This document shows, in pieces, positions 1 through 54,578 of a stretch of DNA of 55,187 nucleotides. How positions within the stretch are numbered: position 1 is the first letter of the stretch; each line of letters opens with the position of its first letter. Source of the stretch: a virus (lineage: Duplodnaviria; Caudoviricetes); the IMG/VR virus record IMGVR_UViG_3300037846_000003, positions 1-55,187 of that record; one strand, 5' to 3'. The position numbers and the translations under genes were made by a program. Under the pieces are notes generated by a model, which had not been told where the DNA came from, made no database searches, and saw nothing but the letters and a program-made list of their open reading frames with translations.

Positions 1-638
1 TTGAACTTCTTAGTGCGCTTGGTGCCACCATTACGATAGGTTGCCACTTCATCGGCACAAACACAATCAATGTCTTTACGACCCATCAATTCATCCAATA
101 GAACTTGAACACCATCATGGTTGATAATGTATACGTCAACGTTTTTCGCCAACTTCTTTAGACGTTGGTTTCTTGTGCCATGGAGGATTTCAAACTTGAG
201 CCATGGGAACTCCTCGATTAGCTCTTTCCCCCACGTGCGATGAACGGCAGACAAGGGACAAATGGCTAGCAGCTTATTAACAAATCCAATTGACCTAAGA
301 TAATCAAATGCCCACAATACACATCGTGTCTTGCCAGTACCTAGCCCATTCAGCACGTAGCCCCGCGCTTCCATCGTCAGCATAGCGGAAGTCCACTTCT
401 GGACTTGGAATGCTGGCTTGGTCAGATCGCTAACCGGGAACTTGTACTGTGACAAGATTGGAGCGGGAACGTCATACCCCTCGGCACGAAGAAGCTTGGT
501 TGATTTGTAGTCATGGATAATGTTTAACTGCTTGCAGTTAACGCTAATAGCTTCCGCCCCTAACTTCTTAGTTAGGCGACCGATTAGCCCTGCATCCATG
601 CAGTCAATACTGATGATATGATTTTGCTGCTGTATCAT
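1..638 (-). CDS. SNF2/SF2-family helicase, N-terminal part (runs off window; start 638 or 599)
   Basis: Manual translation: ...VLNGLGTGKTRCVLWA (Walker A), AICPLS (motif Ia), IINHDG, CADEVA (Walker B). Confidence 0.85.
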   Translation of the reverse strand, partial: MIQQQNHIISIDCMDAGLIGRLTKKLGAEAISVNCKQLNIIHDYKSTKLLRAEGYDVPAPILSQYKFPVSDLTKPAFQVQKWTSAMLTMEARGYVLNGLGTGKTRCVLWAFDYLRSIGFVNKLLAICPLSAVHRTWGKELIEEFPWLKFEILHGTRNQRLKKLAKNVDVYIINHDGVQVLLDELMGRKDIDCVCADEVATYRNGGTKRTKKF

Positions 639-951
639 TCTCTGCCTTGCATACGTTCGATAACCATCTATCTAATAAGTTAAGACCATATGATCCGTCT
701 ATTTTGAATACATTGGCCTTGTATTTTCGTCTTAACTCGGTAGCCAAGTCATTTTGTATCTCTGTTAATTCTTCTCCCGGCTCCTTGGCTTCAATAAAGA
801 ATGCTAGTGGTAGACCTCCTATCTCGACCATACAGTGATAATCTAGCCCACGTTTCCCCATGCCGAACTGTACCGGTTTGAATACGTAGACTGGATATCT
901 CTCAAGGATCGCATTTATTTTTACCTTTACTTGGCCTTCTGGTGTCGTCAT
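604..951 (-). CDS. VRR-NUC-type PD-(D/E)XK nuclease
   Basis: N-terminal TPEGQVK, GLD...FFIEAKEPGEELTEIQ motif; adjacent to helicase as is typical in phages. Confidence 0.75.
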   Translation of the reverse strand: MTTPEGQVKVKINAILERYPVYVFKPVQFGMGKRGLDYHCMVEIGGLPLAFFIEAKEPGEELTEIQNDLATELRRKYKANVFKIDGSYGLNLLDRWLSNVCKAENDTAAKSYHQY

Positions 952-1253
952 GCCTTACCCACCGGTACGCTTTCACGCTTCTCTTGGATGATCTCTTCGA
1001 TTGATCCAGCGGGAATGGCTTCGACAGAGACTATATCGCCTCCCGGCTGTACCTCCATGCTGGTACATCTTTGACAAATGATTTTCATATTTGGATATTT
1101 CGCTAACGCTCGCTGCCCGGTCGGATATACGCCCACCGTATGCTGGCACTTAGAGCATAATTCCCACGATTGATCGGGATGCATTACGTGCATGTCACTT
1201 AAGCGCATGCACACTAGCGCCATAGGTTCGTCACTCATCTTCCAACTCCACAA
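948..1253 (-). CDS. Hypothetical protein with two CxxC pairs
   Basis: 101 aa ORF, CSKC and CQRC, overlaps neighbours in operon fashion. Confidence 0.55.
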   Translation of the reverse strand: MWSWKMSDEPMALVCMRLSDMHVMHPDQSWELCSKCQHTVGVYPTGQRALAKYPNMKIICQRCTSMEVQPGGDIVSVEAIPAGSIEEIIQEKRESVPVGKA

Positions 1254-1981
1254 TGTTCACAAGTATCCACGGAGCAATACTCTCTGCACAGTTTACCCGG
1301 CTTGGCCGGGAAGTCGTTATCTGCGTGAGCTTGCGCCAGCTTGTCGATCCTCGGTATGAGTGTACCCCAGATATCCATGATGTTGCTGCGCGTGAAGACA
1401 ATGGACCGCGTGTCGTTATACTTAGTCCATAGAAATTCGCTCTTGATGCCGACAACATCCTTGAAACAACTGAACGTCAGCATGGCGTTTACCGCTAACT
1501 GCGCATCGTCGTCCTGTAGCTTACCGGTCTTGTAGTCCACAATGTGAGCAAAGCTCTGTTTCTCATTCTTGGGAACAATCTTAATGTAATCGATCATACA
1601 CCGCGCCCATACACCTCTCTCGAAGAACCCCGTCGCTTGATAATCCTTATTGATTGCCAGTTTCAATTCACAATTGACTATTTGGAGCGTATGCGTAACC
1701 TTGGCTAGGTTCTCCGCATGTTTCTCCATGTAGTAGAACTCGCGTGGTAAAGCAACATCCGACATAATGCGTTTAGCCATTGCCTTGTGCAATCGTTGCC
1801 CTTCATCCAATTGGTCCGTTTCGTCTTGCTTGAACTCCTTGTTGACGTCAATCGCTTCGTATCGACGAGGACATGTCTCGTAATTCTTGATACGGGAATA
1901 GGACCAAGCAAATGGCTTGACCTTGTTTACGGTCAATGTTTGGTTTGGGTTTGGGGCGGCACGAAACATCATTAGCTCCAC
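1235..1981 (-). CDS. Cas4/RecB-like PD-(D/E)XK exonuclease
   Basis: WSYSRIKNYETCPRRY, GQRLH, IDY...VDYKTGK, QL motif and C-terminal Cys cluster (CREYC..C..C). Confidence 0.8.
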   Translation of the reverse strand: MELMMFRAAPNPNQTLTVNKVKPFAWSYSRIKNYETCPRRYEAIDVNKEFKQDETDQLDEGQRLHKAMAKRIMSDVALPREFYYMEKHAENLAKVTHTLQIVNCELKLAINKDYQATGFFERGVWARCMIDYIKIVPKNEKQSFAHIVDYKTGKLQDDDAQLAVNAMLTFSCFKDVVGIKSEFLWTKYNDTRSIVFTRSNIMDIWGTLIPRIDKLAQAHADNDFPAKPGKLCREYCSVDTCEHCGVGR

Positions 1982-2448
1982 AGCAACCGTATTTGAGTGA
2001 TCAGCTTATCGGATGGGAAGATGGCAGCATCATCCTCTAAATGCCCAGCCCTACTCTCATGGATGAAGAATATAAACACTTTATCGCTGGTAACAATAGG
2101 AAGCATAAAATCATCTTTCTTCATTTCAAATGTACCGGAGATACCATGCAATCGGCCGAATAACATAGATGCTGCTTTCTGAGATTTGTTAACTGGAAAT
2201 GGACCGTTCATGGCAATAGAATGAGAATGACCGGGGTCTGAAACCTGATGGGCCAAAGCACTATAAAAATCTTCTGGGCGAAAGTTTTGTGCTTGCGCCA
2301 TTTGGGCTTGTATTACCCCATCCACAACATTATTCACCCGCGCAGCATACTCATCTGGTGCATTGGTATAGTATTTGAGCGCATCGATTTGATGCTGTAG
2401 CTCGGACTGCTTAGGCTGTTGACCCAAAAAGCTCAGTTTACCAACCAT
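1972..2448 (-). CDS. Hypothetical protein
   Basis: 158 aa ORF in operon; ATG directly follows palindrome copy 2451. Confidence 0.6.
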   Translation of the reverse strand: MVGKLSFLGQQPKQSELQHQIDALKYYTNAPDEYAARVNNVVDGVIQAQMAQAQNFRPEDFYSALAHQVSDPGHSHSIAMNGPFPVNKSQKAASMLFGRLHGISGTFEMKKDDFMLPIVTSDKVFIFFIHESRAGHLEDDAAIFPSDKLITQIRLLWS

Positions 2449-2463
2449 CTTAACTGCTCGCAG

Positions 2464-2748
2464 TTAGAAGGAGAACATTCGCTCTAGAAGGAGACGAGAC
2501 TGAATGGGTATACCATAATGGCCCGCACTCATATTGACAATTGCGATGTTGTGCTTCGCTAGTTTTGGCCGCATGTTGTAGATGTGTTGACGAGTAGCAC
2601 GCACTGGAGGATATTGCCTAATTCCTTTATTGCCGTTTAGCCACATCTGCTTGAGGATGGATGCTTCAGTGAAGGTGATATTAAGTCGATACATCAAAGT
2701 GATTTCATCGACTTCAGGCTTAGGCAGTAGGTTTACTAGTGTCATCAT
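2464..2748 (-). CDS. Small winged-helix DNA-binding protein (OmpR C-terminal-like)
   Basis: RQHIYNMRPKLAKHNIAIVNMSAGHYGI resembles recognition helix plus wing; RBS GGAG and own promoter upstream. Confidence 0.5.
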   Translation of the reverse strand: MMTLVNLLPKPEVDEITLMYRLNITFTEASILKQMWLNGNKGIRQYPPVRATRQHIYNMRPKLAKHNIAIVNMSAGHYGIPIQSRLLLERMFSF

Positions 2749-2765
2749 ACTACTCCGAAGTTAAC

Positions 2766-2794
2766 ACCATACCAGAAACGTCAGTTCCTGTCAA
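2766..2794 (-). promoter_or_regulatory. Sigma70-type promoter (TTGACA-N5-TGACG family)
   Basis: Minus strand TTGACA-17bp-TATGGT upstream of the 2748 gene. Confidence 0.7.
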
Positions 2795-2832: not shown

Positions 2833-4734
2833 TTAGCACTTCTCTAGGCCCCCATAGCTTTGCCCATACTTAGCTTCCGCTGCTAGCGGAATATCAGGAG
2901 CCCATTTAGGTGATCGGCACATCTCTTCTAGCGCAATTTCCTTTACTAACTGCAAGCAGTCAAGCGGCACCACGTAAGCATTGGCGTCGTGTACTTGCAG
3001 TGCTAATCTAATATCCAAACCTTGACGAGCGCATCGATCCTCGATACGCATGTTCGCCTCAATGACATGTATCCAATCTAAAGCTTGCACGATGTTCTCA
3101 GTTAGCTTCGCGCCGTATATATAACGCCTTATACTGCCATACAAATAAGTTGTATTCCCTTCAACAGTTTGCAAGTCATTGTAATACAAGCGCAGTCCAC
3201 TTGGCAACAAGATAGTTTGTCCTTCTGTCACACATGGTCCAATAGGATCTTGTTCTGGCCACGTTGGGTCCATCATGGCTTCCAGTATCCAGCCGCAACG
3301 CTTCCATAGATAAGGTATCCATGGGAAGAGGGTACGATAAGCATCTACCCATGCTTGGCATTGTTCTATCGTATACACGGTGTTGATGCCAGCTTCGAGC
3401 GCATCGAAAGTAAGCTTAACCAATAGTTTTGCTGCCGACATGCCGAAGCCAAGCCCTAGCACAATCGTCTTGGAGTTAAACCGCTCAATCGGATGGGTTT
3501 TCTTGGTAATGGGGTAGCCGTAGATTTGTGAACCAAACCATGCATACACGTCATTAAGTGGATCACTAAACTGTTCAAGTAAATTCTGCTGCCCTGCTAG
3601 CCATGCGACTAGTCGTGCCTCGATCTGTGATGCATCTACGTCGAGGATAACACATCCATGGGGCGCTCGGATAGCGGAACGCAACACGTTCGTCTTACGT
3701 GTCGATAGGTTCTGCATATTCAGCTTCCAATCGCCGCTCAGACGATGGGTGTGTGCGCCACTATATTTGAGTGGGACCGGCATCCATGTAGTGCCGTAAC
3801 TGCTAGCAGTTAACTCAGCCATGTGGATAAAGCGCTCAGTGCGTGTCTCTTCAATAGTAGACTTAAGCCCTAACCGTGCAGCGACAAGCGCTTGCACTTC
3901 CTCATCAGGATGCTCTTGCAATTTAAGGAAGTCTTCATCAGTCCTAGCGAATGCATAGGTCATCTTATGTGTTCTTGCTGACATTTTCATTGGTGGATCG
4001 ACACCGCGTTGTCGCAATAGATCAGCAAATTGGTCATTGCTCATATACTTGGCACGATCATAGCCCAATACATCTAATAGTTTTCTCTTAGCTCTCATAA
4101 TATCACCGTAGTATATTCTAAGATTTAGTTCATCCAGCAGTAATTGTGGCATAGTGGTCATGCGAATGACGCGATCCATTACTCGCAACTCTGAAGCAGG
4201 GAAGTTATCAATCAATAGATTGTATATCTCCCGACAACCGCGCACGTCGCGCAATGTATAGGTGACAAACATCATTAACAAATCTCGATTACTAGTAAGC
4301 ATTTGGAAGTTAACCCCCTCCATATCTTTAATAGTAGTAAGTTTGGCTTCTAGGCCAAAATACTCAAGCACTTTCTCTAATGATACGCGGGATTGTTTGG
4401 TAACGTGCCCAATAAGAGCGCGGCTCATGCTCATAGTATCAACCATGAGCGGAGGATGGATACCATAGCGCCACGCAAGGATGGTCATATCGAATAAAGC
4501 ATTGTGACTTATTGCTGCGTATGGCTCAGTAATGTTTTCCAAATAGCTAATAACTTTCTCCTGCGGCAGGAAAAAGGGTGGCGCATTATCTTCCGCCACC
4601 CCACATCCTAGCATCTCGAAACGTTTATCAAGTATATACTGTAACGGTGTCACCGTTCTTAGCGTATACGTCTTAGAGTAGAACGTTTCAAAATCTAGGA
4701 AGATCCTTCGCACTTTACTCTCCTTCGTCTTCAC
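2833..4734 (-). CDS. polA: Family A DNA polymerase with 3'-5' exonuclease domain
   Basis: FLDFET (ExoI), HNALFD (ExoII), THRLSG...NMQN, DVDASQIEARL (motif A), RFNSKTIVLGLGFG (motif B), QVHD (motif C). Confidence 0.95.
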   Translation of the reverse strand: MKTKESKVRRIFLDFETFYSKTYTLRTVTPLQYILDKRFEMLGCGVAEDNAPPFFLPQEKVISYLENITEPYAAISHNALFDMTILAWRYGIHPPLMVDTMSMSRALIGHVTKQSRVSLEKVLEYFGLEAKLTTIKDMEGVNFQMLTSNRDLLMMFVTYTLRDVRGCREIYNLLIDNFPASELRVMDRVIRMTTMPQLLLDELNLRIYYGDIMRAKRKLLDVLGYDRAKYMSNDQFADLLRQRGVDPPMKMSARTHKMTYAFARTDEDFLKLQEHPDEEVQALVAARLGLKSTIEETRTERFIHMAELTASSYGTTWMPVPLKYSGAHTHRLSGDWKLNMQNLSTRKTNVLRSAIRAPHGCVILDVDASQIEARLVAWLAGQQNLLEQFSDPLNDVYAWFGSQIYGYPITKKTHPIERFNSKTIVLGLGFGMSAAKLLVKLTFDALEAGINTVYTIEQCQAWVDAYRTLFPWIPYLWKRCGWILEAMMDPTWPEQDPIGPCVTEGQTILLPSGLRLYYNDLQTVEGNTTYLYGSIRRYIYGAKLTENIVQALDWIHVIEANMRIEDRCARQGLDIRLALQVHDANAYVVPLDCLQLVKEIALEEMCRSPKWAPDIPLAAEAKYGQSYGGLEKC

Positions 4735-4912
4735 TGTCAGCAGTTAACTCATATCCTCTAAGTGCATTGTAAAGCGATAGCGCACCATTAGAAACTTTTA
4801 GTAACTTCACCCTCGCTACTTCTTCGTTGCCATATCTTAACTGTTGCAACGCCTCCACGGCATCATCAATAATGTCCGCTAGATCGCCAAGGTGTGTATA
4901 AAAACCATTCAT
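4715..4912 (-). CDS. Hypothetical protein
   Basis: 65 aa ORF overlapping both neighbours. Confidence 0.5.
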   Translation of the reverse strand: MNGFYTHLGDLADIIDDAVEALQQLRYGNEEVARVKLLKVSNGALSLYNALRGYELTADSEDEGE

Positions 4913-6215: not shown

Positions 6216-6239
6216 TGGCTACTCCTTCACTGCTAGCAG

Positions 6240-8693: not shown

Positions 8694-9072
8694 AGATGTT
8701 AATGGTTTTTATACCACTGGTATCAGATACCGTCACCTTCATATTGGGTGACACATGCTGCGATAGCAGAACAGCTTTTGTGTGCAACTGCTTTGCAGCT
8801 TCTGACATCAACCTTACGAATACTTCGCGCTGCTTGAGATCGTAGCTGTCTATCTCAGCCTTAATCTCCAGATCGAATACAACTCGCATTTTATTGCCTT
8901 TCGTCTTCATGTTGAGCATCTCTTGCGAGAATGCAATAGTGAGGCGCGTTCCCGTACCACGCGCCATCCACATATCCCCGCCCCATTGGGTACTGCTGCC
9001 AGTAGTCGGGAGGAAGAAGGTCATGCTTAACTGCCGACAGTTAGTGTTTGCTAGCGTTCTTGTACCGCTCAA
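8668..9072 (-). CDS. Hypothetical protein (start uncertain)
   Basis: ORF between ATPase and VWA gene; plausible starts at 9024 (after palindrome) or at MRVVFD. Confidence 0.5.
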   Translation of the reverse strand: MSGTRTLANTNCRQLSMTFFLPTTGSSTQWGGDMWMARGTGTRLTIAFSQEMLNMKTKGNKMRVVFDLEIKAEIDSYDLKQREVFVRLMSEAAKQLHTKAVLLSQHVSPNMKVTVSDTSGIKTINIFAGEKDNV

Positions 9073-10299: not shown

Positions 10300-10432
10300 T
10301 TGTTGCCCTTCACTGCTTGCAGTTAGACGAGCGGGGTGGAGTAGTACGCGATTACCTCCCATCTGCTCCACCCCGACGCCCTCATGGCTATGGTCATCTC
10401 CCCCATGCGCCATGAAGCTCTATTGAACTAAT

Positions 10433-46503: not shown

Positions 46504-49500
46504 ATGACTGACTATCCCGGCTATGACATAGCACCTAGCGATATCTACCATCGTGGTGGGGGTAGCGACGTTTATGGCTTACGTAACTCTAATGCTGATC
46601 CCAGTTACAAGCTCACTGATCCATCTATAGAGCCGACCCCTGATCAAGCGCCAACGCTTAACGATCATCTGCTTAACCTGTATGGCGCTAGCCTGAATAC
46701 ATTGGCGGGTGTGCGCCGTGGTATGGCGCAACTCCAATCCGATCCCGACTCCCGTAAGTCCTATGATGCTTTAGCTGACGAAGCCAATCAATCAGCCCGT
46801 GATACGTTTAGCCAAATGACGCCCGCAGGGCAGGACACTGCAACCAAATGGAATAAGCATTGGATACACGGCGCTCTTATGGGAGCCGAACAACAGATAC
46901 CAATGCTTGTACCCGCTGGCGCGGCAGAAGCAGTAGGTGGTCCCGCCGCAGCCGCTGCGGTCTATGGTGGGCTATCGGCTGGACAGGCCGCAGATAGTTT
47001 CTTTCATGCCGTAGCTGAAGCCCCAAGTTGGCAGTTGGAGCGTAATCCCGAATATAAGGCTCTAGTTGATGGAGGTATGTCAGAGGCTGATGCACGACAA
47101 ACTTTTGCTCACAATCATGTGAACGATGCTGAACAGTTGCTTGTTGCTGGCGTTACCGGGGCAGGAGTAGGCTATCTAGGACCGGCAGCAAAATTCTTTG
47201 GTCGAGGCTTACTTGGCGGCACAGGACAGAGCGCGCTTAAGAGTATAGCGGCTGGATCGGCAGAAGCCGGTACCGCTATGGGACTACAAACTGGGTTTAT
47301 GGATGCGGCGCAAGCGCATGCATTAGGCGGGATAGGGTTAGACGCAGACAGTGATGAAGATATATTAACGCATGCTGGCGAGGCTGCACTAACTGGCGCA
47401 GCTATTGGCGCAGTGGGTGGTGGTGTAAGTCGTATCTTCCATCGCGAACCGCCGCCTGAGAAGACTTATCCATACACCCCCTACAGTGATTTAACAAAAA
47501 GACCTACAACTGATGCGGCGGGAGCGCGAGCCGAAGGTCCGCCATCTGATGAATCTATGGCTGATGCTTTAAAACTTGGGGGTTATCAGTTTAGAGGACG
47601 ATCCGCTGACTTCCCTCCCAGTTCTGATTATACTGGGATGGACAATGAAGCCAAGCGTACAGCGGCTAACGAACGACATGAAGATCCAGTAGCAGGGCGT
47701 AACGCAAGTATCGAGGGAACTGGACGGGCTGGGTTAAAGCCAGAGGCGGAAACAGCAACCAAAACCACCACAAAGAAGACAACCAGTACCCCATCAAGTC
47801 CAGTTGGCGACGAACAGAATGCGGCGCTCGATGATACGCTCGCGCCACAGTGGATGTTTCAACGCCACTCGATGATCCGCGATCTGCGAGCATCGGACCC
47901 ATCTTTGGTATACAGCGATCTTCTCAAGATGAACCGGGAGACGCTAACCGCCGCTCACGATAAACTGCAAGCAGTTAAGGAACCGCAAGCTCAACCAGAA
48001 CAACCAGCACCACAACAAGCAGCGGCGCAAGCTCCTCAAGCTCCACCTAAACCAGACGTTACGGCTGGCCTACCGCTAGGCGGTAAACCCACATCAGCGG
48101 GCGACTTTGCGGATGTTCCCGAAGGCGGTGCGCCCTCTCCACCTCCTCGCGTCGAACCGCCACGGGAAGTGCAATCGGATGAACCGGGATACGATGAGTG
48201 GGCGGAACAGGTTAAGCAAGCCGAGCAGGGCAAGGCTGCGCCAACCCCAGCACGGGAAGCGGAAGCGCCAGCGCCCGCACCCAAAGCGCCGCTCAAAGCT
48301 GCCGCCGAACCTAAACTGCAAGCAGTTAAGCCGACGACGGTGATGGGCGAAGCGCTCAAGCCGTTGCTGGAAAAACTGCAAACGACCAAAGCGCCAAAGG
48401 AAGTTAAGCCCCTCGAAGAACGGAAAGGGAAGAACCTAACCAAGCCAGAGAAAGCTGCCTTTATATCGAACAACCGCCGTGCTGACCAGATTGTACAAGA
48501 ACATCCTGCGACGGCGAAAGATTGGCTGGCATGGCAACCAGAGAAGTCCGGTGGTACAGGGGCGACAACAGGACTAGTCAATCGTTTGAAAGCGATGGTG
48601 GCTGCGGCTGACGATCCCAAGACTGGGATAAAGACACCCCAGTTATTTATTCGTGCCGCCAAGGACACTCTTACTCATTCGCCTAGCGTGTTAGTCATTG
48701 ACGAAGCCAAGCGTTTACTGGCTAGATTTGACAAAGAAAAGGGCAGATTTCATACTGAAGATATCCAACGGTACATTGAGCGTGAGCAACGATTAACTCA
48801 CCCCGATATGGATCACGCTAAAGAATACAATAAGATATTAGAGGAACGTTCCAAAGAAGCCGAGCGTATGATGGCGAAGACGGGCAAAGGCCCGCAAGCT
48901 GGCGTGCGTCAGTTCAAGGAAGGTGAGGAAGGTCAAGTTGCAGAGGGGGAACAACTACGCGGTGAGCATGAAGAGATACCAGAAGAGGAAGAAGTCAAGC
49001 ATAAGTTCTCTGAACCACTACCCGAACCTCCATCGATAGAGGCTAGTCCTAAAGAATGGGCGGCTTGGAAAGATGAGTTCCGTGATCACCCATTAGTAAA
49101 GGCATCGGTTAACCTTCCGGCACTGAGGCATCTTCGACCGGAGGATATGAGCAATAATCAATTGGTTGGTTTGTATCATGATCTGAGTAAAGTTAAAGCT
49201 GAAATCGACGCCAAGATGGCTGGCAAGCAGAAAGGAACGCTAGCCGAAGCCGTAACGTCAGCCGAAGAACTTAAGGCCAAGCATGCCGAAGAAGCCGCAG
49301 AACCTACAGTCCCTATTGGCAAGGCAGCAAAGGCGATTGCAACATCCAAGGCGAGAGAAGAAGCTAAAGCAGCGAAGAAAGCTGAAAAAGCAGAGCAAGC
49401 ACTGCAAGCTGGAAAAGCTGTACCCTTTGGCGAGTTAATGGGTAAACTGCCAGCAGTTAAGGAAGGTCTTGATCTCAATCGTATCGAGAAGGCATTCAGT

Positions 49501-52500
49501 GAAGACAAGCCGACTACCAAGGTAGGATCGAAGGCTGTATCGTTCGATGAACTACTAGGTAAGACCAAGGATGGTGAAGTCCCGGCGCATATGGCTGACG
49601 GTACAGAAGGAACCGTTACCTCCCATAGGACAACGACAGTAAGAGACGCTTTGGGTAAGGTTAACCCATCCATCTTCCCACCTGTGTTTAGGGGGATGGC
49701 GCGGATAATGATGTCAAAGATAATCGATAAGGTTGGCGATACACCGGTTCATTTGCTTAACGATTCCGAGATGAGCAAGCTCGGTCCCGCAGGGAACGTC
49801 TATGGCAAGTATGACACCAAGTTAGATCGCATCTATCTCAATACAGACCTTGACCCCAAGGGCGAGCGCGCCTCAATCTTCCATGAAGCTTTCCATGCCG
49901 CTACGATCAAAGGTATATTTGAAACGAAAGGTTTGGGTGTTCTGGTAGCTCGGCTGTGGCGTGAGGCCGACCCCGTTAGCGCTAAAGATGTTACCAAGGG
50001 TGAGGATATCCTTAGACACTCGATAGAGTGGCTGACTTACTTTATGACTAACAAAGATGTGATGGAGGGCTTTAAGAGCGCTAAGATATCGCCTGAGCTT
50101 GCCAAAGACATAGGCATACCGGTATGGCGGAAGAAGACAATCTTCGAGGGTGTGCTAGCGGGTATCAGGAAAGCTCTAGGGTTTGGACCGCGAGAGACAG
50201 GCGCGGTTGAAGCTGCACTGGCTCTAAGTGAGCGTGCTATCGCCCATCGTGAGGATGCAGTTATAGATGCACAAGCAAAGAAACCGCCAACAGCTTTCTA
50301 CGATGAGGAGGTGCCCACCCGTCTAACCAAAGAATATAATGGCATACAGGGTAGGATAAGTAAGATCGTTGATGAACAGGTTACACCTCGCGGCACGGGG
50401 GCTATGCTACGCATCAAGCAACTGTTTAACTCTCCACGCGAATGGATGGTTGAGATGGAGAAGAATGGGCATTTTGGTGGCGCGATACGTCAAGTGTTTG
50501 AGCATATGTCAGCGCAAGGGATTGAGCGCGAGAATATCCTTAAGTTATCGAACCCGGTTATGAAGTCGGTCGCCACACTATGGAATAAAAGGCCAGAGGA
50601 ATATCATAAGCTGGTTGACTTGTTGATATCGTCTACAGTGAACGGCGCGCATCCAGACTATGAACTGGGTGAAGGCAAGAACAAATTCATCCGTGAGAGG
50701 GAGAACCCTGAAGAGTCGAACATGGATCATTGGGAGGCGATCAATGGTGGACACGCCAAGGATCGAGCCGCTTATAAAGATTTGGAAGAACCTACGCAAG
50801 AGATATATCGTAAGGTGCGGAATGAGTTTGAACGTATAAACGAAGACGATATCAAGGCGGCGCGAACTACTTTGGGTGCCGCAGTTCAGTCTCATATGGC
50901 TAGGATGGATTACGATGTGGGATTGAAGGATGCAACTCAGAAGGTTATCGATGGCAAGAAGTTAACCAAAGACGAGCAAGAAAAATACGGCGACGATCCA
51001 AACATCGAGCATCTGCAAGTTTATGACAAGATGCTCAAAGACGCGACGGAGCGTGGGCCGTACTTCCCACTCAAGCGCACGTCCGGTCGCTATGCGATCA
51101 TCGGTCAATACAAATATGAAATTCCTAAGAACGCTACCCGCCATCCAGATGAAGAAAATCGTATCATCTTCCCTGACCGTAAGTCGGCTTACAACTTTAC
51201 CGGTGAAGTCGGGCTACCTTCTTATCGGGACACTAGACATTTCTGGCCACAACAAGATGGCACGAAGAAATACACCACGCATGATAACATAAGCAGCGAG
51301 CCAGATTGGCGTGGCGAGACGGAGCCAGCACAAGAGTTCCATGTGGTGGTAAACCCACACCATGTCGAGTTTGCCGATAGCATGGTCGAGGGTGAGAAAA
51401 TCCGTAGGGCTATGCTTCAAGCTGGGGTCGATCCCGCTTCACTGTCAGCAGTTATCCCGGCTGAGAATATCCCACTACAAAAGTACGGACTATTTGGCCC
51501 GCAAGTTAAGCAGATGGTCAACCGTCTGGACAAGCTACCCTATCTCACTCCTGATGAACGCAAGGGAGCAGCGGAAGCTATCGAGCATGTGGCGATAGCG
51601 AACATGGTGGGCAACCGTATATCGCAGAGTATGCTGCGCCGTAACCGTACAGCCGGGGCGAGTGAAGATATTCTGAAGACAATGGATACGCGGAGACGAT
51701 CATCGGCTGGTTTCCAAGCTATGGCGAAGCATCGTGGCGCGATTGATGATAACATTAATCAGATGAAAGACTACGCCAAGGCTAACCGTAACGATCCTAA
51801 TATACAAGCCGCCTTGAATATGTTCGTGGATCGCACAACGAACTTCCAACAAGACGCCCTTAGCGACATGAATATGTCTAAGATGTGGGGCCATATCTCT
51901 CAGATGGCAACATTGAAATACCTCGTCTCGCCAGCGTTCCTTGCTTACCATCAGCTTCACATGCCATTGGTCGTGATCCCAAGGCTAGCGCGAGATATCG
52001 GTTGGTTCCCAGCCTTTCGCGTTGCCTTGAATACCTATAAGCAAATGTCTGGCGGTATGCCCATTATCGGTCGAGGATTTAAGAGCGCATTCCAGCGGGC
52101 GTGGGATTATGACAAAGACCCGATTGATTTTATTGATGCACTTAAGAATGAACTCCAGAAGCATGGCGGTACAGACGACGAGTTAAAGGCGATCCAATGG
52201 GCAGAAGACCACGATTTATTACATCACACTGGTATCAGCTTCTCCGCCTCGTATCGAGGTATGGGGATGATGGATCGGCTCGAACAGCGTAGCCGCAACA
52301 TCTCGCAAGAGATTATTGGTAGCGCCGACGCCATCAACCGGTTTAATTCCATCTTGATGTTTTATCGTACAGCGCGGGATCGGTTTGGCCTAAGAGGCGA
52401 AGAGGCTTACCGTTGGGCGACAGATAGGGTAGCGGAGACGCAAGGACAGTTCTCAGCCTTTAATCGTATCGAGGCTTTCCGTAACCCCAATGTTCGCGCC

Positions 52501-53439
52501 GTGGCACAATTCAAGTCGTTCCCTCTGATCCTGATGAAGACCGTAACCAAAGCGCTTTACAACTCATTGCGCTGGGGTGCAACGGGAGAAGAACGATGGC
52601 AAGCCCTAAGTACCCTTGGCGGGTTGATGGGCGCGTCGATGGCGCTATCGGGTGTGCAAGGCGCAGTGCCGGAACCGATAGAAGATATCAACAACATTAT
52701 GAGTATATTTGGGTTAACCAATACTTGGGATACTTACGAAGACAAGCTTCGCACGATGGCGGCAGACAATACAAGTCCAGAAGTCGCCAACCTTCTGATG
52801 AGCGGACTAGGTGGCGCACTCGGTGTTGATCTGACCCACCGTGGTGGTATCAGTGATCTAACTGGACTGACACAACTGCACGCAGCCAAACCGCAAGACA
52901 TGAATGAGACATGGCTTAAGTTTGTCTCTGGTGTACCCGGTGCTATCATGGGGGATGGGTTAGAGGGGATCGGTGATCTACAAGCTGGCAATATGACAGA
53001 AGCGTTGAAGTTGTTGGTGCCAAGAGCGATCACTGATCCTATCAAAGCCTATCAGCTATATAATCAAGGTGTCACCACTAGAGCAGGGCATGTGCTTACT
53101 GAGCCAGTGGGTGTGCCAGATGCGCTCAGAAGGGCGCTTGGCTTTACTACCCAGACAGAAGCCCATGCCCGTGAAGCACGGCATATGACCTATCTAGATC
53201 GCCAGCAACTATCGGGTGAGCGCGCCAACATAACAGAGATGTGGACGCAAGGCGACCGGGCTGGCGCTATACAAGCGATGCGCGACTATAATGAGAGCAA
53301 CCCTGATTCTCGGATGAGTGTAACCCAGCTACAGTCAGCCGCTAAACGTGCGGCACGACCAACCATATTCGGCTATCCAGACACCCCTCAATCGCGAGGC
53401 GAGCTAGAACATAGGGCAAGCGTATACGGTTTACGTTAA
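46504..53439 (+). CDS. Giant 2311-aa ejection / polyvalent protein with zincin motif and PLxRFG-like region
   Basis: GKYD...IYLN...IFHEAFHAAT (HExxH) followed by IEWL; YFPLKRTSGRY; helical C-terminus. Confidence 0.7.
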   Translation: MTDYPGYDIAPSDIYHRGGGSDVYGLRNSNADPSYKLTDPSIEPTPDQAPTLNDHLLNLYGASLNTLAGVRRGMAQLQSDPDSRKSYDALADEANQSARDTFSQMTPAGQDTATKWNKHWIHGALMGAEQQIPMLVPAGAAEAVGGPAAAAAVYGGLSAGQAADSFFHAVAEAPSWQLERNPEYKALVDGGMSEADARQTFAHNHVNDAEQLLVAGVTGAGVGYLGPAAKFFGRGLLGGTGQSALKSIAAGSAEAGTAMGLQTGFMDAAQAHALGGIGLDADSDEDILTHAGEAALTGAAIGAVGGGVSRIFHREPPPEKTYPYTPYSDLTKRPTTDAAGARAEGPPSDESMADALKLGGYQFRGRSADFPPSSDYTGMDNEAKRTAANERHEDPVAGRNASIEGTGRAGLKPEAETATKTTTKKTTSTPSSPVGDEQNAALDDTLAPQWMFQRHSMIRDLRASDPSLVYSDLLKMNRETLTAAHDKLQAVKEPQAQPEQPAPQQAAAQAPQAPPKPDVTAGLPLGGKPTSAGDFADVPEGGAPSPPPRVEPPREVQSDEPGYDEWAEQVKQAEQGKAAPTPAREAEAPAPAPKAPLKAAAEPKLQAVKPTTVMGEALKPLLEKLQTTKAPKEVKPLEERKGKNLTKPEKAAFISNNRRADQIVQEHPATAKDWLAWQPEKSGGTGATTGLVNRLKAMVAAADDPKTGIKTPQLFIRAAKDTLTHSPSVLVIDEAKRLLARFDKEKGRFHTEDIQRYIEREQRLTHPDMDHAKEYNKILEERSKEAERMMAKTGKGPQAGVRQFKEGEEGQVAEGEQLRGEHEEIPEEEEVKHKFSEPLPEPPSIEASPKEWAAWKDEFRDHPLVKASVNLPALRHLRPEDMSNNQLVGLYHDLSKVKAEIDAKMAGKQKGTLAEAVTSAEELKAKHAEEAAEPTVPIGKAAKAIATSKAREEAKAAKKAEKAEQALQAGKAVPFGELMGKLPAVKEGLDLNRIEKAFSEDKPTTKVGSKAVSFDELLGKTKDGEVPAHMADGTEGTVTSHRTTTVRDALGKVNPSIFPPVFRGMARIMMSKIIDKVGDTPVHLLNDSEMSKLGPAGNVYGKYDTKLDRIYLNTDLDPKGERASIFHEAFHAATIKGIFETKGLGVLVARLWREADPVSAKDVTKGEDILRHSIEWLTYFMTNKDVMEGFKSAKISPELAKDIGIPVWRKKTIFEGVLAGIRKALGFGPRETGAVEAALALSERAIAHREDAVIDAQAKKPPTAFYDEEVPTRLTKEYNGIQGRISKIVDEQVTPRGTGAMLRIKQLFNSPREWMVEMEKNGHFGGAIRQVFEHMSAQGIERENILKLSNPVMKSVATLWNKRPEEYHKLVDLLISSTVNGAHPDYELGEGKNKFIRERENPEESNMDHWEAINGGHAKDRAAYKDLEEPTQEIYRKVRNEFERINEDDIKAARTTLGAAVQSHMARMDYDVGLKDATQKVIDGKKLTKDEQEKYGDDPNIEHLQVYDKMLKDATERGPYFPLKRTSGRYAIIGQYKYEIPKNATRHPDEENRIIFPDRKSAYNFTGEVGLPSYRDTRHFWPQQDGTKKYTTHDNISSEPDWRGETEPAQEFHVVVNPHHVEFADSMVEGEKIRRAMLQAGVDPASLSAVIPAENIPLQKYGLFGPQVKQMVNRLDKLPYLTPDERKGAAEAIEHVAIANMVGNRISQSMLRRNRTAGASEDILKTMDTRRRSSAGFQAMAKHRGAIDDNINQMKDYAKANRNDPNIQAALNMFVDRTTNFQQDALSDMNMSKMWGHISQMATLKYLVSPAFLAYHQLHMPLVVIPRLARDIGWFPAFRVALNTYKQMSGGMPIIGRGFKSAFQRAWDYDKDPIDFIDALKNELQKHGGTDDELKAIQWAEDHDLLHHTGISFSASYRGMGMMDRLEQRSRNISQEIIGSADAINRFNSILMFYRTARDRFGLRGEEAYRWATDRVAETQGQFSAFNRIEAFRNPNVRAVAQFKSFPLILMKTVTKALYNSLRWGATGEERWQALSTLGGLMGASMALSGVQGAVPEPIEDINNIMSIFGLTNTWDTYEDKLRTMAADNTSPEVANLLMSGLGGALGVDLTHRGGISDLTGLTQLHAAKPQDMNETWLKFVSGVPGAIMGDGLEGIGDLQAGNMTEALKLLVPRAITDPIKAYQLYNQGVTTRAGHVLTEPVGVPDALRRALGFTTQTEAHAREARHMTYLDRQQLSGERANITEMWTQGDRAGAIQAMRDYNESNPDSRMSVTQLQSAAKRAARPTIFGYPDTPQSRGELEHRASVYGLR

Positions 53440-53463
53440 CTGCTGACAGTTAAGGAGGTAACG

Positions 53464-53649: not shown

Positions 53650-53765
53650 TGCCTAGAAGCCCCTACCGAGGCGTTCGTGTTTCTTCAGTTATTCTCCACT
53701 CTTTTGATCGGCGTCTCTACGCACGTCGCGCTCGGCCGAGGTACCGCCAGCTATAGGAGAGATAC

Positions 53766-53981
53766 ATGCGATGTGAATGGTGCAACGGTAGGAACTTCAT
53801 CGATAACATGCCATGCACGCATTGCTTCGGCATGGGAATTAGTTGTTGCGGTGATATAGGAGATTGCGATGCCTTCAGACGAAGTGATGCACAATTGGAA
53901 GGCGGGGAAACTACACAGCGGCTCAAAGACGGGGCCAGTGGTGAAGGATCAGGACCAAGCGGTGGCTATCATGATGAGTGA
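53766..53981 (+). CDS. Small Cys-rich protein
   Basis: CEWCNG...CTHCFGMG; RBS AGGAG; overlaps next ORF. Confidence 0.4.
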   Translation: MRCEWCNGRNFIDNMPCTHCFGMGISCCGDIGDCDAFRRSDAQLEGGETTQRLKDGASGEGSGPSGGYHDE

Positions 53982-54186
53982 GAAGCGCGAAGAAGCCAAG
54001 CATGGCGGCAAGTATCCAGAGAAGAAGGGATACAAGAAAGGCGGCGAGGTTACTTCCTCTCATGCCGCCCACACACAGAACCTTGTGGAGACTGTAGCAA
54101 ACCCCACCGGGCATATTAAGCTTAAGAAGGGTGGACAAGTAGAGCCAGCATCGCGAACTGGCTGGAAACGTTGGGGTGCGCGCTAA
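53869..54186 (+). CDS. DUF6496-like protein
   Basis: VMHNWKAGKLHSGSKTGPVVKDQDQAVAIMMSE; RBS AGGAG. Confidence 0.65.
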   Translation: MPSDEVMHNWKAGKLHSGSKTGPVVKDQDQAVAIMMSEKREEAKHGGKYPEKKGYKKGGEVTSSHAAHTQNLVETVANPTGHIKLKKGGQVEPASRTGWKRWGAR

Positions 54187-54398
54187 CTGCCCGCAGTTAA
54201 GAACTACGATGATGGAATGTACTAATCAACATTGGGCTTTATTTAAAGGCTCGTCTAGGGCTGTCTTCCCTGTTTGGCTACTACCCTACCGGCTCCCCTA
54301 TAAAACCCGCCCACGGTGCCAATCCGCCTCACCTACGCGCCTTCTGGAGGGTGATCCTCGGCCTTCCGCTCGATCCCCCTCCTTCGATTTATGCACCC

Positions 54399-54427
54399 AT
54401 TATACGCTAGCTCTTTGGAAAAGTCAA
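54399..54427 (-). promoter_or_regulatory. Near-consensus leftward sigma70 promoter with no downstream ORF
   Basis: TTGACT-17bp-TATAAT on minus strand. Confidence 0.7.
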
Positions 54428-54514
54428 ATGCTTTTATTAGGTGTACTTATACAATTATTAGATAGGGCATATATGACCGTTTTATTATTGTTATTAGGAA
54501 ATTCCGAATGGGGC

Positions 54515-54543
54515 TTGACATTATTTGACGTTTCGCGTATAGT
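54515..54543 (+). promoter_or_regulatory. Endolysin promoter (TTGACA-N5-TGACG family)
   Basis: TTGACA TTATT TGACG TTTCGCG TATAGT, 17-bp spacer. Confidence 0.7.
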
Positions 54544-54578
54544 GCGTTACACTTCTCCCGTAACTGTGAGCAGTTAAG

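What the first reader, a model, noticed from the sequence alone, without database searches (positions are those of the whole stretch)
525..54576. Genome-wide 16-bp palindrome TAACTGYNNRCAGTTA (38 copies): a candidate uncharacterised DNA-binding-site system
Seen: 37 full copies plus one 15-bp variant (starts 525, 2451, 2947, 3797, 4731, 6227, 6721, 9028, 10310, 11497, 12964, 14097, 15394, 15834, 16349, 16924, 17666, 20348, 20964, 23820, 27194, 28606, 30565, 33367, 36118, 37136, 39376, 40832, 42384, 44385, 45219, 47962, 48313, 49444, 51439, 53437, 54184, 54561) across both early and late arms. The core ACTGY-NN-RCAGT is expected about 0.2 times by chance in 55 kb at equal base frequencies. The two central bases are free and the Y/R positions vary independently (C..A mismatches on the transcribed strand at 20964, 37136, 53437), which fits two half-sites read by a dimeric protein on dsDNA better than an RNA hairpin. 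Inference: a phage (or host) protein coats the whole genome at these sites. Possible roles are genome-wide silencing like mycobacteriophage L5 stoperators (which differ in being asymmetric and oriented), parS-like loading/organising sites, protection from host nucleases, or stepwise ejection/packaging. It does not match parS, CtrA or LexA consensus sequences as I know them.
Basis: partly seen in the sequence, partly recalled or inferred. Interest (0 to 1): 0.93.

Follow-up and report, generated by a model that had tools for sequence, protein, structure and literature searches.

The report
Evenly spaced palindrome array in phage
A soil phage writes one 16-letter DNA palindrome about every 1.5 kb along its chromosome, even inside genes, and its relatives keep the same array in their own spelling, which points to an unidentified protein that docks all along the phage DNA.

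Summary
All 38 listed places carry the element. Of these, 37 match the core ACTGYNNRCAGT against 0.13 expected. Only 21 match the full 16-mer of the title.

- **Spacing and coding.** The sites are spaced more evenly than chance (CV 0.57 against 0.98, P about 1e-4). Twenty-one lie inside coding sequence, against 0.64 in synonymous-codon shuffles.
- **Relatives.** The window is a 94%-complete podovirus-like genome related to Rhizobium phage RHph_TM3_14A. Relatives carry the same architecture with lineage-specific half-sites, roughly T-N-A-C-Y-N, often at homologous positions in conserved genes.
- **Duplex, not hairpin.** The two arms degenerate independently, with no excess of compensatory changes and no sense-strand G·U bias, and the hairpins are weak. 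This favours two half-sites read on duplex DNA.
- **Reader and role.** Both remain unknown. The XRE and winged-helix candidates do not fit, and no ParB was found.

The closest thing in print is the unexplained Cluster O mycobacteriophage repeat (PMC4351075). This scan noted similar arrays in at least eight other phage genomes.

The parts
525..540 (.). site TAACTGCTTGCAGTTA, inside the SNF2-like helicase ORF 3-638(-)
2451..2466 (.). junction site; holds stop of 2464-2748(-), start of 1972-2448(-) 3 nt on
2947..2962 (.). site inside DNA polymerase gene (outer base variant CAGTCA)
3797..3812 (.). site inside DNA polymerase gene; homologous position carries the own motif of G004, RHph and G009
4731..4746 (.). 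site over the start of the DNA polymerase gene (TCACTG variant)
6227..6242 (.). junction site; holds stop of 6240-7019(-), 12 nt before XRE-like gene 5910-6215(-)
6721..6736 (.). site inside ORF 6240-7019(-)
8990..9005 (.). weak extra copy GTACTG-CTGC-CAGTAG
9028..9043 (.). junction site; holds stop of ATPase gene 9041-10153(-)
10310..10325 (.). site inside ORF 10150-10413(-)
11497..11512 (.). site inside ORF 11204-11548(-) (CAGTTT variant)
12964..12979 (.). junction site; holds stop of 12977-13228(-)
14097..14112 (.). non-coding site next to a terminator-like hairpin (14068-14092, minus strand)
15394..15409 (.). non-coding site lying in the spacer of a promoter-like match (15418-15390, minus strand) upstream of the 368-aa gene
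15834..15849 (.). junction site, 21 nt before start of 15565-15813(-)
16349..16364 (.). non-coding site in the divergent control region, about 47 nt after promoter-like TTGACA-17-GATAAT (16274-16302)
16924..16939 (.). site holding stop of ORF 16720-16926(+)
17666..17681 (.). non-coding site directly after a terminator-like hairpin (17642-17658)
20348..20363 (.). site inside the TerS-like gene 20209-20904(-)
20964..20979 (.). site 21 nt before the portal gene start
23820..23835 (.). site holding stop of 23388-23822(+)
27194..27209 (.). site inside scaffold-like gene 26209-27432(+)
28606..28621 (.). junction site after the major capsid gene, 5 nt before 28626-29021(+)
30565..30580 (.). junction site; TAA = stop of 29809-30567(+), next ATG 5 nt on
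33367..33382 (.). junction site after tail-fibre gene, 9 nt before 33391-33636(+)
36118..36133 (.). junction site; TAA = stop of 35035-36120(+), next ATG 5 nt on
37136..37151 (.). site inside internal-virion-protein gene 36631-38424(+)
39376..39391 (.). site inside 38971-39462(+), in-frame AAA in place of TAA
40832..40847 (.). junction site; TAA = stop of 39464-40834(+), 1883-aa gene starts 3 nt on
42384..42399 (.). site inside the 1883-aa gene
44385..44399 (.). 15-bp variant (3-nt centre) inside the 1883-aa gene
45219..45234 (.). site inside the 1883-aa gene
47962..47977 (.). site inside the 2311-aa gene (AAACTG)
48313..48328 (.). site inside the 2311-aa gene (AAACTG)
49444..49459 (.). site inside the 2311-aa gene (AAACTG)
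51439..51454 (.). site inside the 2311-aa gene (TCACTG)
53096..53110 (.). weak extra copy TTACTG-AGC-CAGTGG inside the 2311-aa gene
53437..53452 (.). junction site; TAA = stop of the 2311-aa gene, Shine-Dalgarno-like AGGAGG follows
54184..54199 (.). junction site; TAA = stop of 53869-54186(+)
54561..54576 (.). junction site, 3 nt before 54579-55187(+)

Best explanation
The palindromes are an array of recognition sites on double-stranded phage DNA. Each site is two inverted 6-bp half-sites (TAACTG in this phage) around a free centre of 3-4 bp.

**Who reads them (inferred).** The half-sites are read largely independently by a symmetric or multi-domain sequence-specific protein. That protein is most likely encoded by the phage itself.

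**What is shown.** The array is an inherited trait of the whole RHph_TM3_14A-like podovirus group. Each lineage keeps the T-N-A-C-Y core of the half-site but spells the innermost base its own way. Sites are held at intervals of about 1-3 kb. Cheap places are used first: gene junctions, where the element supplies the TAA stop and abuts the next start. Coding sequence is rewritten where genes are long.

**What this implies (inferred).** The even spacing, the indifference to transcription direction and the mostly non-promoter positions point to a chromosome-wide process with a limited reach per site, not to promoter-by-promoter regulation.

**My preferred reading.** The sites are loading or re-loading points for the phage replication machinery, read by the C-terminal domain of its AEP primase-polymerase/SF3 helicase, a P4-alpha-like enzyme. 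I give this about one chance in four. A spreading or sliding DNA-binding protein, or a self-marking code, is nearly as likely.

**Status of each step.**
- Shown: the array, its spacing, its maintenance at the DNA level, the lineage-specific spelling, the independence of the arms.
- Inferred: that a protein binds, that it is phage-encoded, and what it does.
For: 1. **Non-chance and DNA-level.**
   - 37 core matches against 0.13 expected.
   - 21 inside coding sequence against 0.64 in 300 synonymous-codon shuffles.
   - Isolated half-sites are barely enriched: TAACTG occurs 90 times on both strands, of which I reckon about 58 (my own count, from no call) lie in the palindromes, against about 24 expected.
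2. **Even spacing.**
   - Window CV 0.57 against 0.98, P about 1e-4.
   - P < 0.01 in 8 of 12 genomes examined.
3. **Family trait with lineage-specific spelling.**
   - ACTG-N4 x38 in the window.
   - ACTC-N4 x46, x30 and x37 in G001, G003 and G006.
   - ACCC-N3 x33 in both G002 and G010.
   - ACTA-N4 x38 and x29 in G005 and G004.
   - TACC-N6 x71 in G009 and x29 in the first 50 kb of RHph_TM3_14A.
   - Only loci with a 100%-identical capsid share the window's spelling.
4. **Homologous positions.** Homologous places in the exonuclease and DNA polymerase genes carry each genome's own spelling; in RHph and G009 one site sits in a 6-aa insertion.
5. **Duplex half-site reading.**
   - Pooled over 11 genomes: both arms consensus 436; one arm variant 238 (206.8 expected under independence); both arms complementary variant 18 (33.6 expected).
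   - 338 one-arm mismatches against 23 compensated.
   - The arms are invariant while the centre letters are free.
   - Predicted hairpins are weak: DNA -2.4 to -3.9 kcal/mol, RNA -3.3 to -6.5 kcal/mol.
6. **Not a host repeat, as far as searched.**
   - TTACC-N6-GGTAA occurs 0-8 times per genome in 151 genomes of the order Rhizobiales. The control pattern occurs 0-14 times.
7. **Replication link.**
   - The group has an AEP prim-pol + DUF927/SF3 helicase. It is also present in the window's own lineage.
   - Distant relatives with classical primase/helicase genes (phiM6, HTVC115P) lack any such palindrome.
   - G008, which has lost most sites, keeps 12 of its 14 in the early/replication arm.
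Against: - **Variable centre.** The distance between arms varies by 1 nt within a genome: G002 N3 x33 and N4 x13; G007 x17 and x8; G009 N6 x71 and N5 x14. A rigid dimer would not tolerate this. It needs a flexible reader, or a stem-loop after all.
- **No reader identified.**
  - The XRE-like protein's recognition helix is nearly identical in genomes with three different spellings, and differs among genomes with one spelling.
  - The winged-helix protein was not found in RHph, G009, G008, G007 or G003 (that call had no positive control).
  - The TerS-like gene varies with phylogeny only.
  - The C-terminal domain of the prim-pol/helicase matched nothing solved, and I could not fold it.
- **G008.** It keeps every core replication gene but only 14 sites with random spacing. 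This argues against an essential replication role.
- **Phylogeny confound.** Motif class follows phylogeny in my sample, so covariation with any protein is confounded.
- **Limits of the host tests.** The host of the window is unknown.
Confidence: 0.6

Rival explanations
1. Genome-wide operator or roadblock array of a phage repressor, stoperator-like. A small HTH repressor, such as the XRE-like protein 5910-6215 or the winged-helix protein 5421-5894, binds all sites and silences or times transcription of both arms.
For: - The XRE-like and wHTH-like genes lie in the early arm.
- The site at 15394 lies in the spacer of a promoter-like match upstream of the 368-aa gene.
- Duplex half-site reading fits HTH dimers.
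- Stoperators are a precedent for dozens of repressor sites across a phage genome (PMC9283540 and PMC6550527; search listing and abstract starts only).
Against: - Most sites are not at promoter-like matches. 20 of the 38 lie inside ORF calls.
- The sites are symmetric and indifferent to transcription direction.
- The XRE helix does not follow motif class.
- The wHTH family and the XRE gene (tblastn) are not found in RHph and G009, which have the densest arrays.
- I saw no integrase. RHph's 'integrase' is a prim-pol/helicase.
- The capsid gene was found in only 2 of 401 alphaproteobacterial genomes, at 38% identity on small contigs.
Confidence: 0.13
2. Self-marking code. The sites mark phage DNA as 'self' for a DNA-tracking machine, such as a nuclease-helicase, a packaging enzyme or a translocase, in the way Chi or DNA-uptake sequences do. 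Relatives diverge in spelling because of competition between phages.
For: - Even spacing with a maximum gap near 3 kb.
- Maintenance inside genes.
- Lineage-specific 'dialects'.
- Near absence from genomes of the order Rhizobiales, which holds RHph's host, for RHph's spelling.
- RecB-family exonuclease, VRR-NUC and SNF2 genes occur in the group.
- The TerS-like protein has a helix-turn-helix-like N-terminal part.
Against: - Chi and uptake sequences are asymmetric words. Here isolated half-sites are hardly enriched, so the inverted pair is the unit.
- No link to any of these enzymes was shown.
- G008 does without most sites.
Confidence: 0.1
3. Single-stranded DNA stem-loops. These would be exposed on the lagging-strand template and recognised as priming or loading signals, like plasmid ssi signals or the phage G4 origin hairpin (both recalled, from no call).
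For: - The centre length varies between 3 and 4 nt within genomes, and the centre letters are free.
- The spacing is of Okazaki-fragment size. The spacing is; the fragment size is from my own knowledge.
- A palindrome gives the same stem on both strands.
- The group has an AEP prim-pol/helicase.
Against: - No pairing constraint: compensated variants are fewer than expected under independence, 18 against 33.6.
- Many sites carry an unpaired mismatch near the loop. G010 has 30 hybrid ACCC/GAGT sites.
- Stems are weak as DNA, -2.4 to -3.9 kcal/mol.
Confidence: 0.07
4. RNA hairpins in the mRNAs. These would act in translational coupling at junctions, as processing sites or stability barriers, or as antiterminator loading sites.
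For: - 11 of 38 sites hold an upstream stop codon, and several lie 3-5 nt before the next start.
- In G001, G003 and G006 the commonest centres are AGGA, TGGA or TCCT. With the 3' arm these give a Shine-Dalgarno-like AGGAG.
- RNA stems are somewhat stronger, up to -6.5 kcal/mol.
Against: - 20 of the 38 sites lie inside ORF calls, in more than one reading frame.
- No sense-strand preference for G·U over A·C: 83 against 88.
- No compensatory excess.
- The stem letters are fixed and the loop is free, the reverse of the usual protein-RNA hairpin logic (my own knowledge).
- Sites also lie in non-coding DNA next to terminator-like hairpins.
Confidence: 0.05
5. Sites for a host protein that the phage exploits, for example a host nucleoid protein, topoisomerase or replication factor. 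The spelling would then change with the host.
For: - Relatives range from 43% to 61% G+C, which suggests different hosts.
- No universal phage-encoded reader was found.
Against: - RHph's spelling is not enriched in 151 genomes of the order Rhizobiales, which holds its host.
- The window's spelling appears only as single scattered sites in the 80 printed of the 120 listed stretches.
- The conserved T-N-A-C-Y core across such different G+C contents fits one inherited reader better than many unrelated host factors.
Confidence: 0.05

Closest known systems
17-bp dyad repeats of Cluster O mycobacteriophages (Corndog and relatives; Cresawn et al. 2015, PMC4351075; passages read)
   Same: - 7-bp inverted arms around a free 3-bp centre, with invariant arms.
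- More than 30 copies per genome.
- About a third to a half lie inside coding regions.
- No orientation with respect to transcription.
- The authors suggested dimeric regulator sites, and the function is unknown.
   Different: - Unrelated phages (siphoviruses of Mycobacterium) and a different sequence.
- Copies there are denser towards one genome end.
- In the passages I read I saw nothing on even spacing, lineage-specific spellings at homologous positions, or independence of the arms.
Stoperators of Cluster A mycobacteriophages (L5 gp71-type repressors; PMC9283540, PMC6550527; search listing and abstract starts only; further details recalled)
   Same: Dozens of sites for one phage-encoded protein spread over the whole genome. 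The spelling differs between related phages.
   Different: - Stoperators are asymmetric, oriented with transcription and bound by a monomeric immunity repressor of temperate phages.
- Here the sites are symmetric, orientation-free, half of them in coding sequence, and no lysogeny module or prophage copy was found.
KorB and its OB operators on plasmid RK2 (PMC11790492; abstract read)
   Same: Palindromic loading sites dispersed over a roughly 60-kb replicon. The protein acts at a distance limited to about 1.5 kb. This gives a rationale for sites every 1-3 kb.
   Different: KorB is a ParB-family CTPase clamp. No ParB_N domain was found in the window or in 5 relatives, while the same search matched 11 of 14 control genomes.
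Origin repeats bound by the phage P4 alpha primase-helicase, and palindromic origins of SF3-helicase initiators (recalled from my own knowledge; no paper read)
   Same: A primase plus SF3-helicase protein carries its own sequence-specific DNA-binding domain and assembles on short repeated or inverted words. This phage group encodes such an enzyme.
   Different: Known origins are one or two local clusters, not 40-85 sites spread evenly over the genome. Binding here is untested.
DNA uptake sequences (DUS/USS) of Neisseria and Pasteurellaceae (recalled from my own knowledge)
   Same: Short words kept about once per kb, inside genes as well, spaced more evenly than chance, with lineage 'dialects' that co-evolve with a protein reader.
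   Different: Those are asymmetric words in bacterial chromosomes, read by the uptake machinery. Here the unit is an inverted pair in a phage.

Membership tests
Cluster A stoperators | Asymmetric site, oriented with the direction of transcription | tested here: not met
   The sites are palindromic. The centres show no orientation with gene direction in the window.
Cluster A stoperators | Bound by the immunity repressor of a temperate phage | tested here: inconclusive
   No integrase was recognised; RHph's 'integrase' is a prim-pol/helicase. The capsid gene was found in 2 of 401 alphaproteobacterial genomes only, on small contigs. Binding is not testable here.
ParB/KorB with parS/OB sites | A ParB_N (CTPase) domain protein encoded by the replicon | tested here: not met
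   PF02195 was not found in the window or in G001, G005, G006, G009 and G010. The control search matched 11 of 14 genomes.
ParB/KorB with parS/OB sites | Palindromic sites of 13-16 bp dispersed on the replicon | tested here: met
   38 sites of 16 bp.
Structured RNA or DNA hairpin element (terminator, processing site, ssi-type signal) | Base pairing kept through compensatory changes | tested here: not met
   Complementary both-arm variants number 18 against 33.6 expected under independence. One-arm variants number 238.
Structured RNA or DNA hairpin element (terminator, processing site, ssi-type signal) | Stable stem relative to shuffled sequence | tested here: inconclusive
   DNA -2.4 to -3.9 kcal/mol and RNA -3.3 to -6.5 kcal/mol. 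z-scores range from -0.95 to -3.0 for 5 sites.
Structured RNA or DNA hairpin element (terminator, processing site, ssi-type signal) | For RNA: G·U tolerated on the transcribed sense strand | tested here: not met
   In sense orientation G·T 83 against A·C 88.
Cluster O-type dyad repeats (descriptive class) | Invariant short inverted arms, free centre, more than 30 copies, both between and inside genes | tested here: met
   compared with passages of PMC4351075. This is a resemblance in form; the phages are unrelated.
Host chromosomal repeat (REP-, Chi- or USS-like) | Comparable density in the host chromosome | tested here: not met
   RHph's spelling occurs 0-8 times per genome in 151 genomes of the order Rhizobiales, no more than the control pattern. 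The window's spelling occurs only singly in the 80 printed of the 120 listed stretches.
P4-alpha-type origin repeats | Primase plus SF3 helicase with its own DNA-binding domain encoded by the phage | tested here: inconclusive
   The enzyme is present in relatives and in the window's lineage. Its C-terminal ~100-aa domain matched no solved structure by sequence and was not folded.
P4-alpha-type origin repeats | Repeats clustered at one or two origins | tested here: not met
   The sites are spread evenly over the genome.

The most novel reading that the evidence does not exclude
Each lineage of this phage group has a private 'address code': a two-half-site word written every 1-3 kb on both arms and inside genes. 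The phage's own primase-helicase, or another core replication or organisation protein, is loaded onto the chromosome at these words. Replication priming or chromosome handling would then be sequence-programmed at some 40-85 defined points instead of one origin. The code and its reader have drifted together, so that close relatives can no longer read each other's DNA.
Probability: 0.2. Interest if true: 0.85.

Novelty: new variant of a known kind. Interest (0 to 1): 0.7.

Why it matters
Dispersed palindromes of unknown role have been in print for one phage cluster since 2015 (PMC4351075). This scan keeps finding similar arrays in unrelated phages. That suggests a widespread piece of phage chromosome biology that has not been worked out.

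This case helps for three reasons:
- It has a cultured relative, Rhizobium phage RHph_TM3_14A, with at least 40 sites in its first 50 kb, so the question can be taken to the bench.
- The statistics separate duplex half-site reading from hairpin models.

It would also matter for recoding and engineering phage genomes, because synonymous changes at these places would not be neutral.

Tried and rejected
- **Close DNA relatives.** A megablast of 20 kb of the window against 50,697 deposited phage records found nothing. Relatives were reached through the portal and capsid proteins.
- **RNA evidence.**
  - Four soil metatranscriptome runs hold small parts of the window.
  - Laid on 20500-40499, they gave a few low-depth contigs, mostly over 26.5-29.8 kb.
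  - One contig bridges site 27194. Contigs cannot show RNA ends, so nothing follows for or against RNA processing.
- **XRE-like protein 5910-6215 as reader: rejected.** Its helix is nearly the same in genomes with three different spellings (window, G005, G002). It differs among genomes with one spelling.
- **Winged-helix protein 5421-5894 as universal reader: not supported.** Its profile finds nothing in 5 of 5 further records. That search had no positive control.
- **TerS-like protein 20209-20904.** The model has mean pLDDT 58, and Foldseek gave no hit at E <= 0.001. Sf6 small terminase appears only at E about 1. Its helix region across 47 loci varies with phylogeny only.
- **400-aa zinc protein next to the prim-pol (relatives only).** The model has pLDDT 55 and only weak gp32- or SSB-like hits at E > 0.09. 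It is probably an SSB and not a candidate reader.
- **Profile searches of solved structures.** Searches with the TerS-like, zinc-protein and prim-pol C-terminal alignments gave nothing.
- **ParB/KorB.** No ParB_N was found.
- **Gene loss as an explanation for G008's loss of sites.**
  - No core gene is missing.
  - The genes shared only by RHph and G009 include a two-HTH protein (gp045), a zinc-ribbon protein (gp047) and a paralogous small-protein family. None has a detectable counterpart in the window's clade.
- **Literature.** Searches found no paper on this phage group's palindrome. RHph_TM3_14A is named in no paper of the library. Supplementary files were not consulted.

Full report
**The window.** It is one IMG/VR virus record of 55,187 bp, rated 94% complete and linear.
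- Genes run leftward from about 17 kb to the left end. They include a family-A DNA polymerase, a RecB-type exonuclease, an ATPase, a DUF2201 VWA/metallopeptidase protein and the start of an SNF2-like helicase.
- Genes run rightward from about 17.7 kb. They include the large terminase, portal, scaffold-like protein, major capsid protein, tail fibres, internal virion proteins and two giant genes of 1883 and 2311 aa.
- It has no close DNA relative among deposited phages.
- By portal protein its nearest cultured relatives are Rhizobium phages RHph_TM3_14A, TM27A/B and TM29, at 53% identity.
- Near-identical DNA occurs in 16 soil metagenome runs.

**The observation.**
- All 38 listed starts carry the element.
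- The 12-nt core ACTGYNNRCAGT occurs 37 times, against 0.13 expected from dinucleotide-preserving shuffles.
- The full 16-mer of the title occurs 21 times.
- The other 16 copies deviate at one of the two outermost bases of one arm. One copy has a 3-nt centre.
- Two weaker extra copies lie at 8990 and 53096.
- 11 sites hold the TAA stop of the upstream gene. Several lie 3-5 nt before the next start codon. Four lie in non-coding DNA outside my ORF calls, three of them between 15.3 and 17.7 kb. 20 lie inside ORF calls, including seven in the two giant genes and two in the DNA polymerase gene.
- Synonymous-codon shuffles of all genes give 0.64 +/- 0.83 internal core matches, against 21 observed. 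The internal copies are therefore kept at the nucleotide level.
- Gaps between sites have a mean of 1460 bp, a maximum of 3374 and a CV of 0.57. Random placement gives a CV of 0.98, and only 1 in 10,000 random placements is as even.

**A family trait with private spellings.**
- The capsid protein finds 451 related stretches in IMG/VR, of which 80 were fetched.
- Only the four loci with a 100%-identical capsid share the window's word.
- The others carry a different inverted repeat of the same design.
- I fetched ten relatives whole or as far as they go, plus 50 kb of RHph_TM3_14A.
- Counting 4+4 inverted cores gives the table below.

| Genome | Core and centre | Copies |
|---|---|---|
| window | ACTG-N4 | 38 |
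| G001 | ACTC-N4 | 46 |
| G003 | ACTC-N4 / N3 | 30 / 8 |
| G006 | ACTC-N4 | 37 |
| G007 | ACTC-N3 / N4 | 17 / 8 |
| G002 | ACCC-N3 / N4 | 33 / 13 |
| G010 | ACCC-N3 / N4 | 33 / 10 |
| G005 | ACTA-N4 | 38 |
| G004 (31 kb) | ACTA-N4 | 29 |
| G009 | TACC-N6 / N5 | 71 / 14 |
| RHph (first 50 kb) | TACC-N6 / N5 | 29 / 11 |
| G008 | TACC-N6 / N5 | 9 / 5 |

- Aligned by their outer edge, the half-sites read T-N-A-C-Y-N. The innermost base is G, C, A or T according to lineage.
- Spacing is more even than random at P < 0.01 in 8 of 12 genomes. In two of the four others (G006, G010) the 4-letter core misses many sites that carry C on one arm and T on the other.
- Of 47 loci of at least 10 kb with a TerS-like gene, I count 29 in the listing with five or more copies of one AC-initial inverted repeat.
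- Two distant relatives with classical primase/helicase genes, phiM6 and HTVC115P, have no such repeat.

**Sites are old and the spelling changes in place.** In alignments of conserved proteins, sites of different genomes fall in the same columns.
- *Exonuclease.* Around a conserved L-x-P-R-V peptide, G001 and G006 carry TTACTC-CCGC-GAGTGA. G010 carries TTACCC-CAC-GGGTAA. RHph carries TTACC-CCAAA-GGTAA. G002, G005 and G007 carry decayed versions.
- *DNA polymerase, first place.* The window (TAACTG-CTAG-CAGTTA), G004 (CAACTAT-AA-ATAGTTG), RHph and G009 have sites at one homologous position. In RHph and G009 the 5' arm lies in a 6-aa insertion, and the 3' arm is made from the neighbouring G-N codons.
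- *DNA polymerase, second place.* G001 and G002 have their own spellings, and G006 and G010 have hybrids.
- The array therefore predates the split of these lineages. Dozens of sites have changed spelling in concert, which calls for a trans-acting reader whose preference moved.

**Duplex half-sites or a stem-loop?** Four tests bear on this.
1. *Pairing.* For each genome and arm position I took sites that are consensus everywhere else. I then tabulated consensus against the commonest variant on the two arms. Pooled, 436 sites are consensus on both arms. 238 have the variant on one arm, where independence predicts 206.8. 18 have the complementary variant on both arms, where independence predicts 33.6. 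Compensation is thus rarer than under independence. This is what one expects if total binding energy over two separately read half-sites is under selection, and it is the opposite of a pairing constraint. G010 alone has 30 sites with ACCC on one arm and GAGT on the other.
2. *Sense-strand wobble.* Among 338 one-arm mismatches, A·C (88) and G·T (83) are equally common when read on the coding strand.
3. *Stability.* Five window sites fold at -2.4 to -3.9 kcal/mol as DNA and -3.3 to -6.5 kcal/mol as RNA, with z-scores of -0.95 to -3.0.
4. *Where the information lies.* The arms are fixed and the centre is free. That is the usual logic of operators, not of protein-bound hairpins (my own knowledge).

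Against a rigid dimer stands the 1-nt variation of the centre within genomes.

At junctions the free centre is sometimes used for the next gene's ribosome-binding site: AGGA or TGGA followed by GAG in G001, G003 and G006. I read this as economy of space.

**Host or phage reader?**
- RHph's word TTACC-N6-GGTAA occurs 0-8 times per genome in 151 genomes sampled from the order Rhizobiales, which holds its host. The control pattern occurs 0-14 times. The phage has at least 40 in 50 kb.
- The window's word was found only as single scattered sites in the 80 printed of the 120 listed stretches of the species-genome collection.
- The capsid gene was found in 2 of 401 alphaproteobacterial genomes, at 38% identity on small contigs, so I see no sign of prophages.
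- A phage-encoded reader is the simpler reading, though a host protein with few chromosomal sites is not excluded.

**Who reads it?** I could not tell.
- *XRE-like protein (5910-6215).* It is 49-75% identical across six genomes. Its predicted recognition helix is nearly the same in the window, G005 and G002, which have three different innermost bases. It differs among the genomes with C. It is not found by tblastn in RHph, G008 or G009.
- *157-aa winged-helix protein (5421-5894).* It is confined to the same clade.
- *No ParB_N domain* is present.
- *Core proteins shared by all motif-bearing genomes* include the following:
  - a TerS-like protein with an HTH-like part;
  - SNF2, exonuclease and VRR-NUC;
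  - a probable zinc SSB;
  - a ~1000-aa AEP primase-polymerase fused to a DUF927/SF3 helicase. This is annotated 'integrase' in RHph.
- The window's contig ends before the prim-pol/helicase gene. A near-identical contig carries its C-terminal 597 aa.
- That enzyme has a ~100-aa C-terminal domain of unknown fold. It is the most diverged of the replication proteins: 28-29% identity between subclades, against 39-41% for the polymerase.
- From my own knowledge, the phage P4 alpha protein has the same layout and binds origin repeats through a C-terminal winged helix. This is a lead, not a test.
- G008 keeps all these genes but only 14 sites, 12 of them in the early/replication arm. This fits a replication link but speaks against the full array being essential.

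**What it most likely is.** It is an evenly spaced array of duplex recognition sites for a flexible, symmetric, phage-encoded DNA-binding protein. It acts on the chromosome as a whole with a reach of a few kb per site.
- I give 0.6 to that general statement.
- Within it I give about 0.25 to loading or priming by the primase-helicase.
- The rest is split between a spreading or sliding organiser and a self-marking code.
- Repressor roadblocks, single-strand hairpins, RNA hairpins and host-factor sites are less likely, for the reasons given under the rivals.

**Relation to what is known.**
- In form it matches the Cluster O mycobacteriophage 17-bp repeats, whose function is unknown (PMC4351075; passages read).
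- It differs from Cluster A stoperators in symmetry and orientation (listing and abstract starts).
- It resembles the KorB/OB system in having dispersed palindromes and a distance-limited action (abstract), but it lacks the defining protein.
- Earlier notes of this scan report evenly spaced, lineage-specific palindromes in at least eight other phage genomes. One of them, AACTAAC-N1-2-GTTAGTT, may belong to this same group. I did not check those notes.
- My literature searches found no description of this group's array.

Noticed in passing
L085 (RHph_TM3_14A) 21647-25023, 33741-34598, 37489-37722; G009 29547-33175: A paralogous family of small early proteins of about 70-95 aa, with a conserved core around 'ARAMLLG ... 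Y ... H ... DADTLEP'. It has 15 members in RHph's first 50 kb and 8 in G009, and none detected in the other ten genomes.
   Followed up: partly
L085 42239-45322 and 26780-26793: The RHph gene annotated 'putative integrase' is an AEP primase-polymerase fused to a DUF927/SF3 helicase. The record also annotates an 'attL' inside the ATPase gene, which looks like an automatic call.
   Followed up: partly
G008 34806-45691 and 56601 (contig coordinates): An asymmetric 10-11-letter word occurs 9 times, always in one orientation, in the early region of the relative that has lost most palindromes. It may be an early promoter element.
   Followed up: no
L085 around 32560-32600; G009 DNA polymerase gene: A 6-aa insertion in the DNA polymerase of RHph and G009 carries the 5' arm of a palindrome copy. 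The 3' arm is made from the neighbouring codons.
   Followed up: yes
relatives: L086 16609-17781, L116 6860-8062 and orthologues: A ~400-aa protein upstream of the prim-pol/helicase. It has four invariant cysteines, a Pro/Ala-rich linker and a conserved C-terminal tail. Weak fold hits point to gp32-type single-strand-binding proteins. It is probably the phage SSB.
   Followed up: partly
window 14068-14092 (-) and 17642-17658 (+): Two G+C-rich terminator-like hairpins with T runs sit directly beside palindrome copies at 14097 and 17666. They lie at the ends of the 368-aa gene unit and of the small rightward ORFs.
   Followed up: no
window 16274-16302 and 20847-20874: Two near-consensus sigma-70-like promoters, TTGACA-17-GATAAT and TTGACA-16-CATAAT. 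Each lies upstream of a palindrome copy by about 47 nt and about 90 nt respectively.
   Followed up: no
window 26500-29800: Contigs of four soil metatranscriptome runs cover mainly the scaffold and capsid genes at low depth. This is consistent with expression of this phage in soil, but contamination of those libraries by DNA was not excluded.
   Followed up: partly
window 22462-22475: A symmetric double variant of the element, ATCTGCTTGCAGAT, lies inside the portal gene, in one of the longest gaps between regular sites.
   Followed up: no
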